IMG/VR virus record: IMGVR_UViG_2597490083_000002
Strand: one strand, 5' to 3'
From: a virus
Lineage: Duplodnaviria > Heunggongvirae > Uroviricota > Caudoviricetes
Length of the DNA stretch: 57,346 nt
Both the position numbers and the translations under genes were made by a program. Shown one piece after another: positions 1 through 57,346 of this stretch (its first letter is position 1; each line of letters begins with the position of its first letter). The notes under the pieces were generated by a model, which made no database searches, was not told the origin of the DNA, and was given only the letters and a program-made list of their open reading frames with translations.

Positions 1-561
1 TCAAAACTGAAAGCGCATCCAGGCAAAGTACACATTGCCATTGTTGTAGGTACCCGGAATGTAGGTCATCTGAAAAGTCACTGGGCCATAACCCACGGAG
101 GCCAATGGCAGTAGAACCGGGAGAGGGATGTAATTCCAGTTATCGCGTGCCGTTACGCCAGCGGTGAATCCCAGACCTAAATGAAAATTTTCATCCGCCA
201 GCGGTCGCCAGGTACTTTCCCATCCGTATCCGGCAATCGGTTCCCATTTGTTCCACGAGTCCTTAAATGCCATGGCATACAGGCCATGCCAGTTTCCTTT
301 TTCATCCCAACGCGACAGGCCAAAACCGCCACCCCACGGTCGCTCGTTATAGCGATCGGTTTTTTCTTTGTCGTAAGCGAAACGTGCATGCCAGGTGATG
401 GCAGGAATATATAAATCATAATGTTCAGGCTGTTGCCAGGTTTGTGCAATATTTTCTCTAAACGTTGTCATCCTCTCATCTGCGTTAGCAAAAACTTTAC
501 CAACGCTGATTAACTGAATAAAAACAAAGGAAAAGATAGCGACATATTTACTCACGTTCAT
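1..561 (-). CDS. pagP: Lipid A palmitoyltransferase PagP (CrcA)
   Basis: ORF 1..585 matches PagP along its length; start placed at internal [10 protein letters not shown] (186 aa), the signal-peptide start I recall for PagP. Confidence 0.9.
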
Positions 562-1149
562 TTGTGACCATAAAACATTTATCAAAAATCTACTACTAGC
601 ATAGCAAAGCTACAATTAACATAACCTTAATAGACCCAACATAAAGAATAATCTGAATAGCTGCTCTATTTATTTCCGCTTGTTCAAGTTAAATATTTCC
701 GCGCATCGATTAAAGATGATGCGTCGTTTTCTGCGATGGGAATAGTCAAAAAAGAAAAACCAAGTCTTTTTTGATGACAAAATGCAATCAAGGAAAAATT
801 ATTTTATTTTTTTAACGAGATACAACAATCATCTTAACGAAGTATATAATATATATCGTCAACCCATGCTCATATTAGATTATTTTTTGAGCGCACAGCC
901 GCAGCTAACACCATTGCAATTAACAAATTTGCATCAATCCACCATCAATTTACACACATTATTATGTGATAATTGCCAACCGCTAAATATGCGTTTTGTT
1001 ATCTATGTATAAAAACAGCAACTTCAATGTCTTAATGGCAGTTTTTCTTGATTTTAATCAGCATTCATCGCCAATTTATTGGGCATATTTTTTCCTTAAG
1101 CTTTAGGAAGTTTTTATTATTTACTTTGGGCCTGGAGACAGGAAAAATT

Positions 1150-2535
1150 ATGCTGACATTCATTGAACTCCTTATTGGGGTTGTGGTTATTGTGGGTGTG
1201 GCTCGCTACATCATTAAAGGGTATTCCGCCACTGGTGTGTTATTTGTCGGTGGCCTGTTATTGCTGATTATCAGTGCCATTATGGGGCACAAAGTGTTAC
1301 CGTCCAGCCAGGCTTCAACAGGCTACAGCGCCACGGATATCGTTGAATACGTTAAAATATTACTAATGAGCCGCGGCGGCGACCTCGGCATGATGATTAT
1401 GATGCTGTGTGGCTTTGCCGCTTACATGACCCATATCGGCGCGAATGATATGGTGGTCAAGCTGGCGTCAAAACCATTGCAGTATATTAACTCCCCTTAC
1501 CTGCTGATGATTGCCGCCTATTTTGTTGCTTGTCTGATGTCACTGGCCGTCTCTTCCGCAACCGGTCTGGGGGTTTTGCTGATGGCAACCCTGTTTCCGG
1601 TGATGGTAAACGTTGGTATCAGTCGTGGCGCAGCAGCTGCCATTTGTGCCTCCCCGGCGGCGATTATTCTCGCACCGACTTCAGGGGATGTGGTGCTGGC
1701 GGCGCAGGCTTCCGAAATGTCGCTGATTGACTTCGCCTTCAAAACGACGCTGCCTATCTCAATTGCTGCAATTATCGGCATGGCGATCGCCCACTTCTTC
1801 TGGCAACGTTATCTGGATAAAAAAGAGCACATCTCTCATGAAATGTTAGATGTCAGTGAAATCACCACCACTGCCCCCGCGTTTTATGCCATTTTGCCGT
1901 TCACGCCGATCATCGGTGTACTGATTTTTGACGGTAAATGGGGTCCGCAATTACACATCATCACTATTCTGGTGATTTGTATGCTGATTGCCTCCATTCT
2001 GGAGTTCCTCCGCAGCTTTAATACCCAGAAAGTTTTCTCTGGTCTGGAAGTGGCTTATCGCGGGATGGCAGATGCGTTTGCTAACGTGGTGATGCTGCTG
2101 GTTGCCGCTGGGGTATTCGCTCAGGGGCTTAGCACCATCGGCTTTATTCAAAGTCTGATTTCTATCGCTACCTCGTTTGGTTCGGCGAGTATCATCCTGA
2201 TGCTGGTATTGGTGATTCTGACCATGCTGGCGGCAGTCACGACCGGTTCAGGCAATGCGCCGTTTTATGCGTTTGTTGAGATGATCCCGAAACTGGCGCA
2301 CTCTTCCGGCATTAACCCGGCGTATTTGACTATCCCGATGCTGCAGGCGTCAAACCTGGGTCGTACCCTATCACCCGTTTCTGGCGTAGTCGTTGCGGTT
2401 GCCGGGATGGCGAAAATCTCACCATTTGAAGTCGTAAAACGCACCTCGGTGCCGGTGCTTGTTGGGCTAGTGATTGTTATCGTTGCTACAGAGCTGATGG
2501 TGCCAGGAACGGCAGCAGCGGTCACAGGCAAGTAA
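1150..2535 (+). CDS. dcuC: Anaerobic C4-dicarboxylate transporter DcuC
   Basis: ORF 1048..2535; recognised DcuC N-terminus MLTFIELLIGVVV at 1150 after AGGAAA; 461 aa polytopic membrane protein, convergent with dpiA fragment as in E. coli. Confidence 0.9.
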   Translation: MLTFIELLIGVVVIVGVARYIIKGYSATGVLFVGGLLLLIISAIMGHKVLPSSQASTGYSATDIVEYVKILLMSRGGDLGMMIMMLCGFAAYMTHIGANDMVVKLASKPLQYINSPYLLMIAAYFVACLMSLAVSSATGLGVLLMATLFPVMVNVGISRGAAAAICASPAAIILAPTSGDVVLAAQASEMSLIDFAFKTTLPISIAAIIGMAIAHFFWQRYLDKKEHISHEMLDVSEITTTAPAFYAILPFTPIIGVLIFDGKWGPQLHIITILVICMLIASILEFLRSFNTQKVFSGLEVAYRGMADAFANVVMLLVAAGVFAQGLSTIGFIQSLISIATSFGSASIILMLVLVILTMLAAVTTGSGNAPFYAFVEMIPKLAHSSGINPAYLTIPMLQASNLGRTLSPVSGVVVAVAGMAKISPFEVVKRTSVPVLVGLVIVIVATELMVPGTAAAVTGK

Positions 2536-2543
2536 ATAGTAAT

Positions 2544-2570
2544 GCCGGAGGCAAGTTTCCTCCGGCTTTA
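2544..2570. terminator. Hairpin plus T-run between convergent dcuC and dpiA
   Basis: gccggagg-caagtttc-cctccggc followed by ttta; lies between the two convergent 3' ends. Confidence 0.45.
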
Positions 2571-2575
2571 TCATG

Positions 2576-2917
2576 TCACCCACTGTGGTATATGCGTTGT
2601 GGTCTGCCAACTTTGCCGTGAACAATTTCAGCAATAATCAGATGGCGGCTGGCGCAATATTCAAGATAACGCCTGGCAGTGGTGCGGCTGATGGTCAGTG
2701 CCTGCGCCACCGTTTCTGCCGTATGTTGCACACCAGGCTCTTTAAACAGTTTTCGCACCGCGTTTAGCGTCAAGGGGTCAATGCCGGTCGGCAGTTCGTC
2801 TTTGGGTTCACCGCGAGCATAGGCATTAAACATCTCATCAATTTGCTTCTGGCTGGCGCTATCAATACTTTCCAGCATATGTTTACGCTGGCGGAAACGG
2901 GTTAGCGTTTGCCCCAG
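2576..2917 (-). pseudogene. dpiA: dpiA (citB) response regulator, 3' fragment; 5' part displaced by Mu-like insertion
   Basis: ORF 2576..2878 has the winged-helix C-terminus (TTARRYLEYCASRHLIIAEIVHGKVGRPQRIYHSG); reading frame runs up to 2917 where Mu-type end sequence begins. Confidence 0.75.
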
Positions 2918-3254
2918 TGTATTGATTCACTTGAAGTACGAAAAAACCGGGAGAACATTGGATTATTCGGGATCTGATGGGATTAGATTTGGTGGGGCTT
3001 GCAAGCCTGTAGTACAAATTTTAGGCGTTAACCAATGAAACGCGAAAGATAGTAAAAAATTGCTTTTGTTTCATTGAAAAAACGAAAAACAAAAACACTA
3101 TAAATCATTTCAATCATAGCTTCAAAAAACGTTCAAAACCGATAACAACCAGGCTGTCATCAAATGACTCATATCACAAATCAGCTCATGCCGTTTAGGT
3201 ATGTTACATGTGTGATTATGTGAGGTGAAGTATGTTTTAGCTGGCTCATGGTTG
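2918..3254. promoter_or_regulatory. Mu-like attL terminal region (expected transposase end-binding sites)
   Basis: Position and sequence resemblance to the Mu left end as I recall it; individual binding sites not resolved. Confidence 0.45.
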
Positions 3255-56287: not shown

Positions 56288-56344
56288 TTATTATTGATCC
56301 TCATTGTTTATATATTAATATATTCGTGCAAATGGAGTGAGGAT

Positions 56345-56361
56345 TCTTTAAAAAAACGCGC
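56345..56361 (-). promoter_or_regulatory. Candidate MxiE-box-like motif upstream of ipaH
   Basis: Minus-strand reading ggcgcgtttttttaaag about 60-75 nt upstream of the ipaH ATG; matches the T-rich core of the MxiE box as I recall it (GTATCGTTTTTTTANAG) at roughly 14 of 17 positions. Confidence 0.35.
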
Positions 56362-56390
56362 CTGTAAATAGTTAAGAACAGGAAGAACTG

Positions 56391-56576
56391 TTGGGGATGT
56401 GGCTGGCCGAAAATGAAGGGGTGAAGTTCTGGCTCAATGTGCTGACTGAACTGAAAAAACGCGGTTGGTCGCCCTACCTTTTCATCAAGCCAGTAGTCTG
56501 CCCACCACAGCATCATTTCTCTGCGCTTATCGAGATACTGAGCATGGTTGTAAATTCAGCTAACCCAGTGCGTTGA
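56391..56576 (+). pseudogene. Possible remnant of an IS256/mutator-family transposase
   Basis: Short ORF containing GVKFWLNVLTELKKRG, resembling the FWL.VL..LK.RG motif of mutator-type transposases; only about 60 codons. Confidence 0.3.
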
Positions 56577-56650
56577 CAAAAAATTAGCGCAAGAGGACAA
56601 AAAATCACCTTGCGCTAATGCTCTGTATCAGGTCACTAATACCATCTAAG

Positions 56651-56779
56651 TGGTTGATTCATAGTGACTGGATATGTTGTGTTTTGCAGTATTATGCAGT
56701 CTATTTTTTAAGCTAAATGTATTATAATGCATTGATATTAATGATTTTTACTGTTTCTCGGTCAGCTTTTTTATACTAA
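56651..56779 (+). other. Lambda-type attR: phage P arm plus 15-bp core GCTTTTTTATACTAA at 56765-56779
   Basis: Core sequence present verbatim, followed by cttgagcg (bacterial B' side); upstream tagtgactggatatgttgtgttttgcagtattatg... resembles the lambda attP arm as I recall it. Confidence 0.75.
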
Positions 56780-56869
56780 CTTGAGCGAAACGGGAAGGTA
56801 AAAAGACAAAAAGTTGTTTTTAATACCTTTAAGTGATACCAGATGGCATTGCGCCATCTGGCAGAGTGA

Positions 56870-57346
56870 TTAACTAAACATCGCGGTAATCGATGCGCTT
56901 GCCAGAGAGTGGAAATGAACGTTAAACCCGACCATCGCGCCGCTGGCTCCTTCATCGACATCAATACGCTCTACATCCAGCGCGTGAACGGTAAAAATGT
57001 AGCGATGGGTTTCGCCTTTCGGCGGCGCTGCGCCATCGTATCCGGTTTTACCAAAATCGGTACGCGTCTGCAAAACGCCGTCTGGCATTGCTACCAGACC
57101 AGAGCCAAACCCTTGCGGTAATACGCGGGTATCAGCGGGTAAATTAACAACTACCCAGTGCCACCAGCCGGAGCCGGTTGGCGCATCCGGGTCGTAGCAG
57201 GTGACAACAAAACTTTTCGTTCCCGCAGGAACATCATCCCACGCCAGATGCGGTGAAATATTATCGCCATCGTAACCCATGCCGTTAAAGACATGACGAT
57301 GCGGCAACTTATCGCCATCGCGCAGATCGTTACTGATGAGTTTCAT
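56870..57346 (-). CDS. ybhB: YbhB, PEBP/Raf-kinase-inhibitor-like protein
   Basis: 158 aa matching E. coli YbhB (MKLISNDLRDGDKLPHRHVFNGMGYDGDNISPHLAWDDVP...); the gene next to the lambda attB site. Confidence 0.9.
   Translation of the reverse strand: MKLISNDLRDGDKLPHRHVFNGMGYDGDNISPHLAWDDVPAGTKSFVVTCYDPDAPTGSGWWHWVVVNLPADTRVLPQGFGSGLVAMPDGVLQTRTDFGKTGYDGAAPPKGETHRYIFTVHALDVERIDVDEGASGAMVGFNVHFHSLASASITAMFS

What the first reader, a model, noticed from the sequence alone, without database searches (positions are those of the whole stretch)
1..57346. Chromosomal backbone loci that are far apart in E. coli K-12 are bridged here solely by prophage and IS DNA
The left flank is pagP-dcuC-dpiA and the right flank is ybhB at the lambda attachment site. 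In the K-12 map as I recall it these are separated by on the order of 150 kb of core genes. Here everything between them is Mu-like, lambdoid or IS sequence with multiple non-duplicated IS junctions, implying a large IS- or prophage-mediated deletion or inversion of intervening chromosome.
Basis: inference. Interest (0 to 1): 0.5.

Follow-up and report, generated by a model that had tools for sequence, protein, structure and literature searches.

The report
Shigella flexneri inversion junction of prophage debris
This stretch of a Shigella flexneri chromosome is a scar of several old rearrangements between insertion sequences and dead prophages, which flipped about 143 kb of chromosome rather than deleting it; this is ordinary and already documented for Shigella.

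Summary
Window 1-2917 is pagP-dcuC-dpiA' (K-12 657,117->654,201). Window 56,765-57,346 is the lambda attB side with ybhB (K-12 807,328-807,909). These lie 153 kb apart in K-12, and the 53.8 kb between them is only phage and IS DNA.

The two flanks have opposite orientation relative to K-12, and the left flank runs on into the "missing" interval (pagP...dacA). This is therefore an inversion-type junction, not a deletion.

The outer junctions are ordinary insertions: a Mu-like attL in dpiA codon 114 and a lambda-type attR at ybhB. All rearrangement lies inside the mobile DNA, at three IS600 and two IS911 copies that lack target duplications.

Other S. flexneri assemblies show:
- the un-rearranged state (dpiB-dpiA-N|Mu right end|IS600|MuA'-ner-c|dpiA-C-dcuC);
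- the reciprocal junction (dpiA-N|Mu right end|IS1|prophage int'|ybhA-modCBA-gal, descending);
- the pgl-ybhC block moved, IS600-flanked with ipaHb, to about 0.92 Mb in 2457T.

Because IS1 sits at one end and IS600 at the other, at least two events were needed.

The same layout occurs in many independent complete genomes, including 2457T, so it is not an assembly error. This is known Shigella biology and of low interest.

The parts
1..561 (-). pagP, complete; K-12 656,557-657,117 read backwards
1150..2535 (+). dcuC; on the minus strand in K-12, so this flank is inverted relative to K-12
2576..2917 (-). dpiA 3' fragment (codons 114-226). It ends at K-12 654,201. Positions 2913-2917 (CCCAG) are one copy of the 5-bp Mu target duplication.
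   Evidence: the second TSD copy is seen in L017/L081
2918..5778 (+). Left end of a Mu-like prophage. attL starts TGTATTGATTCACTTGAAG. c repressor 3255-3764 (-), ner 3918-4172, transposase MuA codons 1-544 (4147-5778) cut by IS600.
   Evidence: 96.5% identity over the 66% of the query that aligns to phage Mu 1-2962
5779..7042 (+). IS600 copy a. No target duplication (TAT / ATT). This is a recombination junction between the Mu left end and the myovirus prophage head module.
7043..16541 (-). Head, packaging and lysis fragment of a myovirus-type prophage ('ProA', which sits at ybhA|pgl in EIEC FDAARGOS_944). Genes: STY1053', major capsid, cement, DUF2213, Mu-F-like, portal, terminase, DedA cargo gene, Rz'. 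Reversed relative to ybhB.
12787..14117 (-). IS2 inserted in the terminase gene with 5-bp duplication ATTGC; a simple insertion
16542..17790 (+). IS911 copy a, no target duplication
17791..19501 (+). Lambdoid fragment: DUF1133 Q-like protein lacking its N-terminus, tRNA array (CAT, Arg, Thr, Gly; 18423-18732), start of a holin
19502..20765 (-). IS600 copy b, no target duplication. Its two flanks are not contiguous in any of 5,426 E. coli genomes.
20766..22802 (+). 2-kb island of the replication region of the lambda-site prophage ('ProB'): toprim primase N-terminal 619 aa with Hint/LAGLIDADG hits, cut by IS911
   Evidence: 99.1% to FDAARGOS_944 ProB
22803..24051 (-). IS911 copy b, no target duplication. 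Its flanks are not contiguous in any E. coli genome searched.
24052..29908 (+). phiP27-like lambdoid fragment: DnaC-like, DnaB helicase, NinH, Q, second tRNA array (27460-27770), holin, 209-aa ORF, lysozyme, Rz'
29909..32481 (+). IS600 copy c (no target duplication), itself interrupted at 30284-31589 by a 1306-bp IS3-family element on the minus strand with duplication CAA
32482..56765 (+). Late region of the lambda-like prophage ProB: Nu1' (N-terminus missing), gpA, portal (frameshifted), S49 protease, capsid E, tail genes, tape measure, J (split), Lom, tail fibre, DUF4376'. Then the ipaH effector gene (54524-56287, minus strand) and the attP P-arm.
56766..56780 (+). Lambda att core GCTTTTTTATACTAA; attR of ProB at the K-12 attB position
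56870..57346 (-). ybhB, same strand as in K-12, followed outside the window by bioA-bioBFCD-uvrB

Best explanation
The window is a rearrangement junction of the main Shigella flexneri lineage. It is most probably from CP004057.1 at about 691.5-748.9 kb.

Three independent mobile-element insertions came first.
1. A Mu-like (SfMu-type) phage transposed into dpiA codon 114, with 5-bp duplication CTGGG. IS600 later gutted it, leaving 2.9 kb of left end and 4.1 kb of right end.
2. A myovirus-type ipaHb prophage (ProA) sat between ybhA and pgl.
3. A lambda-like ipaHa prophage (ProB) sat at attB between ybhC and ybhB.

Homologous recombination between IS copies lying in these elements then reshuffled the chromosome.
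- An IS1 pair (Mu S gene x ProA int) and an IS600 pair (Mu x ProA head/tail boundary) inverted the about 143-kb segment dpiA-C...ybhA (K-12 654.2-797.5 kb). This placed the ProA head module beside the Mu left end.
- Further IS911/IS600 exchanges stitched in pieces of ProB's replication region and of a phiP27-like lambdoid phage, and joined them to ProB's late operon at Nu1.
- The 10-kb pgl-ybhC block, with ipaHb and ProB's truncated int, was moved as an IS600-flanked unit beyond the ybhB...pflA segment.

No backbone is shown to be lost.

Shown: the flank identities and orientations, both outer insertion junctions, the un-rearranged and reciprocal configurations in other S. flexneri genomes, and the new location of pgl-ybhC.

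Inferred: the order and exact number of recombination events, and that the reciprocal junction lies in this same genome.
For: Orientation and continuation
- The left flank is reversed and the right flank forward relative to K-12.
- The left flank continues pagP->dacA in nine assemblies.

Outer junctions
- Mu attL, c, ner and MuA(1-544) are present.
- The lambda attR core and P arm are present.

Un-rearranged state
- It reads dpiB-dpiA(1-114)|attR-mom-com-gin'-S-U|IS600|MuA'-ner-c|dpiA-C-dcuC, with the CTGGG duplication.
- It is seen in L017 and L019 and in the NCTC assemblies L081 and L082.

Reciprocal junction
- It reads dpiA-N|Mu right end|IS1 (no TSD)|ProA int'-ybhA-modCBA-acrZ-modEF-galE.
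- It is seen in CP026810.1 and CP049606.1.
- One search finds a 372-member cluster of int' fragments matching it.

Earlier and ancestral-like layouts
- The IS600|head' junction already exists in a genome that still has the un-rearranged dpiA locus.
- An ancestral-like two-prophage layout is seen in EIEC FDAARGOS_944.

pgl-ybhC block
- The block IS600-DUF4376'-ipaHb-pgl...ybhC-int'-IS600 lies about 209 kb downstream of the window region in 2457T, CP102221.1 and CP045941.1.

IS junctions
- The IS600-b and IS911-b flanks are not contiguous in any of 5,426 E. coli genomes.

Independent assemblies share the layout.
Against: - The reciprocal (IS1) junction and the window junction were not seen in one and the same assembly. 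The look-up tool returned different genome sets.
- The two ends of the inverted segment carry different IS elements, so no single simple event explains it. The proposed two-step order (IS1 pair first, then IS600 pair) is only one parsimonious path.
- The full 143 kb between dacA and galM was not read, so its completeness is inferred. The inference rests on both ends being present and on established knowledge that essential genes lie in it (leuS, lptE, holA, mrdAB, lnt, glnS, fldA).
- Some strains show further local differences: an extra IS911 inversion in 2457T, a group II intron in others, and a differently oriented pgl-ybhC block on WACK01000005.1. The history therefore differs by lineage.
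Confidence: 0.85

Rival explanations
1. A ~150-kb deletion removed everything between dpiA and ybhB, and the prophage/IS DNA fills the gap.
For: Only the raw adjacency of two loci that are 153 kb apart in K-12.
Against: - The retained dpiA fragment is the 3' part, and the flank runs pagP->dacA away from the junction. The interval therefore lies next door, inverted.
- ybhA-mod-gal and pgl-ybhC are present in S. flexneri.
- The interval holds essential genes (established knowledge).
Confidence: 0.01
2. A single inversion by recombination between two inverted IS600 copies (one in MuA, one in the prophage) produced the junction.
For: - IS600-a lacks a target duplication and joins MuA' to the ProA head module.
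- The un-rearranged state has the same IS600 next to MuA'.
- An IS600|head' junction exists independently.
Against: - The reciprocal junction carries IS1, not IS600, and joins the Mu S gene to ProA int.
- In the K-12 frame the two IS600 copies would be direct repeats. Their recombination alone would delete the segment rather than invert it. This follows from the orientations.
- After IS600-a the window shows head genes reversed, not the tail genes that a one-step model predicts.
Confidence: 0.08
3. Assembly artefact: repeats (IS600, IS911, ipaH) were mis-joined, so the adjacency is not real.
For: The window holds seven IS copies and repeated tRNA and lysis segments, which are the classic cause of mis-joins.
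Against: - The same order is found in many independent complete genomes from different laboratories and technologies. These include 2457T (AE014073.1), 2002017 (CP001383.1), LM651928.1, CP012137.1, CP020342.1, CP102209.1 and CP182555.1.
- Single alignments of 15.8 kb and 21.9 kb run across the IS junctions.
- MuA' is 16,830/16,831 bp from the truncated primase in both the window and CP178302.1.
Confidence: 0.01
4. The flanks are paralogous copies or horizontally acquired look-alikes, not the true dpiA and ybhB loci.
For: None beyond the abstract possibility.
Against: - DNA identity to K-12 is 98-99%.
- There are 10 kb of conserved synteny on each side.
- Each locus is single-copy in nearly all E. 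coli genomes.
- The YbhB equivalog model is passed.
- The exact attB core is present.
Confidence: 0.005

Closest known systems
IS-mediated chromosomal inversions and translocations of Shigella genomes
   Same: - The breakpoints lie in IS copies that lack target duplications.
- Large backbone segments are flipped relative to K-12.
- The layout varies between strains.

Sources: PMC1550401 reports 6 inversions and 1 translocation between Sf8401 and Sf301, attributed to IS629, IS1, IS4, ISSfl2 and IS600. PMC8072062 reports high inversion rates and rearrangement hot spots.
   Different: Here the IS copies that recombined sat inside three neighbouring prophages, not in backbone genes. The junction is therefore a 54-kb patchwork of four phage remnants. 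The two ends of the inverted segment carry different IS types.
SfMu and the SfMu remnants of S. flexneri (PMC4406740)
   Same: - The right-end remnant is 94.7% identical to SfMu 32,618-37,146.
- The left end has the Mu order attL-c-ner-A.
- The paper reports remnants in most strains.
   Different: The element here is split. Only the 2.9-kb left end is in the window. The right end stays with dpiA-N at the other end of the inverted segment.
ipaH-carrying prophages at ybhA|pgl and at lambda attB in EIEC (FDAARGOS_944, VL40)
   Same: - Same integration sites and same tail-fibre/DUF4376/ipaH ends.
- 97.7-99.5% identity to the window's prophage modules.
   Different: In the EIEC genome FDAARGOS_944 both prophages are largely intact and the backbone is collinear with K-12. 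In S. flexneri they are broken up and exchanged.

Membership tests
Chromosomal inversion by recombination between repeated IS copies | The two flanks of the junction have opposite orientation relative to the reference order | tested here: met
   Window 1-2917 matches K-12 reversed and 56,765-57,346 matches it forward.
Chromosomal inversion by recombination between repeated IS copies | A reciprocal junction exists that joins the other halves of the two breakpoints | tested here: met
   dpiB-dpiA-N|Mu right end|IS1|ProA int'-ybhA-mod-gal (descending) is found in CP026810.1 and CP049606.1. It was not shown in the same assembly as the window.
Chromosomal inversion by recombination between repeated IS copies | The same IS, in inverted orientation, lies at both ends (one-step event) | tested here: not met
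   IS600 is at the window end and IS1 at the reciprocal end. More than one event is therefore required.
Chromosomal inversion by recombination between repeated IS copies | IS copies at the breakpoints lack their own target-site duplications | tested here: met
   Three IS600, two IS911 and the reciprocal IS1 have no duplication. IS2 and the nested IS3-family element do.
Large deletion | The intervening genes are absent and the flanks keep the same relative orientation | tested here: not met
Mu-like transposable prophage insertion | Mu-type terminal sequence, attL-c-ner-A gene order, and a 5-bp target duplication | tested here: met
   - attL starts TGTATTGATTCACTTGAAG at 2918.
- The element is 96.5% identical to Mu over the 66% of the query that aligns.
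- CTGGG is present on both sides in un-rearranged strains (K-12 654,201-654,205).
- The predicted DpiA(1-114)::attR fusion protein is found on 699 S. flexneri contigs.
Lambda-type site-specific integration at attB (ybhC|ybhB) | 15-bp core GCTTTTTTATACTAA with a phage P arm on one side and bacterial B' on the other, and the partner attL with int next to ybhC | tested here: met
   The core is at 56,766-56,780 with a P-arm-like sequence upstream. ybhC-int' is seen in the relocated block.

The most novel reading that the evidence does not exclude
The dpiA / ybhA-pgl / attB cluster of three prophages may be a recurrent, still-active IS600/IS911/IS1 recombination hot spot in S. flexneri.
- At least three dpiA-locus configurations were seen, plus further local inversions and a mobile IS600-flanked ipaHb-pgl-ybhC unit.
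- These alternative states could serve as lineage markers.
- They could also change the replication orientation of a 143-kb segment and the dosage or context of two ipaH effector genes, with possible selective consequences.
Probability: 0.12. Interest if true: 0.35.

Novelty: already known. Interest (0 to 1): 0.15.

Why it matters
The value is mainly bookkeeping. It shows that an apparent 150-kb gap is a multi-step inversion and translocation, not gene loss.

It also gives base-pair breakpoints and the surviving ancestral and reciprocal configurations. These could be used as structural markers for S. flexneri lineages and as a caution for reference-based assembly. It does not reveal a new kind of element or mechanism.

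Tried and rejected
1. **Predicted fusion protein.** I searched the protein database with the predicted DpiA(1-114)::Mu-attR fusion. It returned only frameshift variants of DpiA. The fusion does exist, but it is hidden inside a larger cluster (found later).
2. **Predicted attR junction in viral contigs.** The exact-pattern scan gave no hit.
3. **Genome-representative scan for the dpiA breakpoint.** The only record labelled 'Shigella flexneri' (CP182557.1) has an intact dpiA and is only about 94% identical to K-12. It is probably an error-rich assembly, so it was uninformative.
4. **YbhC homologue search.** It gave one large E. coli cluster. A truncated 365-aa YbhC cluster proved to come from strains with no prophage at attB.
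5. **Genome papers.** The 2002 and 2003 S. flexneri genome papers are not held.
6. **Linking the IS1 junction to a window-type genome.** I tried through IMG/VR taxon ids and through the int' fragment. No overlap of genome sets was found.
7. **Are IS600-b and IS911-b simple insertions?** I joined their flanks in silico and searched. No E. coli genome has either pair contiguous.
8. **Is phiP27 the source of 20,766-22,802?** It is not. Only 24,052-26,596 matches it.

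
Full report
**Source and flanks**

The window is Shigella flexneri chromosome.
- The truncated Mu transposase it encodes (544 aa) occurs in hundreds of S. flexneri assemblies.
- The exact 587-aa IpaH at 54,524-56,287 occurs on record only in CP004057.1.
- The locus from CP004057.1 is 100% identical to window 44,524-57,346.

Window 1-2917 matches K-12 MG1655 657,117->654,201 at 98.8%, in reverse. It carries pagP, dcuC and dpiA codons 114-226. Window 56,765-57,346 matches K-12 807,328-807,909 at 98.1%, forward. It carries the attB core and ybhB. The K-12 distance is 153,127 bp.

Orthology is secure. Synteny extends to dacA on the left and to bioA-bioBFCD-uvrB-yvcK on the right. 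YbhB passes its NCBIfam equivalog model.

**What lies between (2918-56,764)**

| Coordinates | Content |
|---|---|
| 2918-5778 | Mu-like left end: attL, c, ner, MuA codons 1-544; 96.5% identity to Mu over the aligned 66% |
| 5779-7042 | IS600-a |
| 7043-16,541 | Head/terminase/DedA/Rz' module of a myovirus-type prophage, reversed; carries a simple IS2 insertion (TSD ATTGC) |
| 16,542-17,790 | IS911-a |
| 17,791-19,501 | Lambdoid Q-like/tRNA fragment |
| 19,502-20,765 | IS600-b |
| 20,766-22,802 | 2-kb piece of a toprim primase gene, 99.1% identical to the lambda-site prophage of EIEC FDAARGOS_944 |
| 22,803-24,051 | IS911-b |
| 24,052-29,908 | phiP27-like DnaC/DnaB/Q/tRNA/lysis fragment |
| 29,909-32,481 | IS600-c, with a nested IS3-family element (TSD CAA) |
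| 32,482-56,765 | Degenerate lambda-like late operon from Nu1' to tail fibre, then ipaH and the attP P-arm; ends at a canonical att core at 56,766-56,780 |

No backbone gene was found in the bridge. The three IS600 and two IS911 copies have no target duplications. The flanks of IS600-b and of IS911-b are not contiguous in any of 5,426 E. coli genomes.

**Deletion or inversion**

The two flanks have opposite orientation relative to K-12. The left flank also leads into the supposedly missing interval. Nine assemblies continue leftwards through cspE, crcB, tatE, lipA, lipB and dacA, which is K-12 657->664 kb read backwards. A deletion is therefore excluded.

By established knowledge, K-12 654-797 kb also holds essential genes (leuS, lptE, holA, mrdAB, lnt, glnS, fldA).

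**The outer junctions are ordinary insertions**

Junction 2917/2918 is a Mu attL. In un-rearranged S. flexneri the same attL is followed by c-ner-MuA', IS600 and 4.1 kb of SfMu-like right end (S, U, gin', com, mom, attR). Then come dpiA codons 1-114 and dpiB, with CTGGG duplicated on both sides. This state is seen in the IMG/VR contigs L017 and L019 and in the NCTC assemblies UGYT01000001.1 and UGYQ01000001.1.

I predicted the resulting DpiA(1-114)::attR fusion protein. It was then found exactly, on 699 contigs labelled S. flexneri.

A second collinear variant lacks the Mu left end (L076, L077, L080). It was the commonest among the 24 contigs read.

The ybhB junction is a lambda-type attR.

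**Reciprocal junction and fate of the interval**

In CP026810.1 and CP049606.1, dpiB-dpiA-N-attR-mom-com-gin'-S' is joined through a 768-bp IS1 without target duplication to the 3' part of a prophage integrase. ybhA, modCBA, acrZ, modE, modF and galE follow, which is K-12 797 kb descending. A 372-member cluster of matching S. flexneri int' fragments, and contigs that begin inside int' and run on to galM, agree with this junction.

So the segment dpiA-C...ybhA (about 143 kb) is inverted.

The remaining 10 kb (pgl, ybhD', ybhH, ybhI, ybhJ', ybhC) survives as a block flanked by IS600 on both sides. It has ipaHb at one end and the truncated lambda-type int at the other. It lies at about 0.92 Mb in 2457T, about 209 kb downstream of the window region. 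The spacing is the same in CP102221.1 and CP045941.1.

**Likely ancestral layout and mechanism**

EIEC FDAARGOS_944 shows this order: modABC-ybhA | myovirus prophage (int...head...tail...ipaHb) | pgl...ybhC | lambda-like prophage (int...late...ipaHa) | ybhB.

A genome that still has the un-rearranged dpiA locus already carries the IS600|head' junction of the window. IS600 therefore sat at the head/tail boundary of the myovirus prophage beforehand.

In the K-12 frame that IS600 and the one in Mu are direct repeats. The different IS at the reciprocal end also has to be explained. The simplest path has three parts.
- First, an IS1 x IS1 inversion (Mu S gene x prophage int).
- Second, an IS600 x IS600 inversion that brings the head module next to MuA'.
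- Third, IS911/IS600 exchanges and relocation of the ipaHb-pgl-ybhC unit.

The order and number of steps are inference.

**Robustness and variation**

Single alignments from independent complete assemblies cover most of the window:
- window 1-15,781: seven assemblies, six at 99.9-99.99% and the error-rich CP178302.1 at 99.5%;
- 10,978-32,850: CP182555.1 at 99.8%, and CP178302.1 to 32,877 at 98.8%;
- 10,973-34,147 minus the nested IS: CP102209.1;
- 44,524-57,346: CP004057.1.

The segment 34,148-44,523 lies inside the lambda-like late operon and is collinear with FDAARGOS_944 from 40,243.

Strains differ locally. 2457T has a third IS911 with the DedA-Rz1 segment flipped. Some genomes carry a group II intron there. 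On WACK01000005.1 the pgl-ybhC block has the opposite relative orientation.

**Gap**

I could not show the IS1 junction and the window junction in one assembly.

**Comparison with what is known**

IS-mediated inversions and translocations relative to K-12 are a documented hallmark of Shigella genomes (PMC1550401, PMC8072062). SfMu remnants are reported in most S. flexneri strains (PMC4406740). The same arrangement is present in 2457T (AE014073.1).

The finding is real and correctly observed. It is a known kind of structure in a well-studied genome, so interest is low.

Noticed in passing
window 20977-22836: The prophage toprim primase fragment has Hint (PF05203) and LAGLIDADG (PF14528) hits after the Toprim domain. 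This suggests an intein with a homing endonuclease inside a prophage primase. The full gene is 968 aa in FDAARGOS_944. Here IS911 cuts it at codon 619.
   Followed up: partly
window 16366-16541 and 29732-29907: A 176-bp stretch of the Rz/Rz1 lysis region is present twice, 100% identical and inverted. Each copy abuts an IS (IS911-a, IS600-c). It either comes from two prophages with the same lysis cassette or is a footprint of staggered recombination.
   Followed up: partly
window 18423-18732 and 27460-27770: There are two copies (98.5% identical) of a four-gene prophage tRNA array with anticodons CAT, TCT (Arg), TGT (Thr) and TCC (Gly). The CAT tRNA is annotated as tRNA-Ile in related E. coli records.
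   Followed up: no
window 34872-36465 and 48148-51628: The lambda-like late operon is defective. The portal gene is split into 351-aa and 207-aa ORFs. The tail-tip J gene is split into 325-aa and 864-aa ORFs, and the latter scores below the TipJ cut-off.
   Followed up: partly
window 15695-16207: A DedA/VTT-domain membrane protein gene sits as cargo between the lysis and packaging genes of the myovirus prophage. It is conserved in the EIEC prophages.
   Followed up: no
L100 (AE014073.1 701,835-723,694): 2457T carries a third IS911 copy, and the DedA-Rz1 segment between two IS911 copies is flipped relative to the window. L095, L097 and L101 have a group II intron reverse transcriptase near the same place.
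   Followed up: partly
L059 (CP178302.1 2.55-2.57 Mb) and L055-L064: A second identical ipaHb copy with the same DUF4376/tail-fibre remnant, IS2 and IS600 lies next to purL-mltF-tadA-murR in S. flexneri. This matches the reported ipaH0887/ipaH2610 duplication (PMC8072062).
   Followed up: partly
L030, L027, L037 (genome contigs): Three species representatives are only 94-97% identical to K-12 across cit-dpiAB-dcuC, with many indels. They are labelled S. flexneri SFBU0723, E. coli ECDA1023 and E. coli ECGI0523. They look like error-rich assemblies rather than divergent species.
   Followed up: no
P0018: A 117-aa DpiA variant ending ...KPIAYNGWGKR has 93 member sequences labelled E. coli. It arises from a 1-nt deletion in codon 112, only a few bases from the Mu insertion point.
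   Followed up: no
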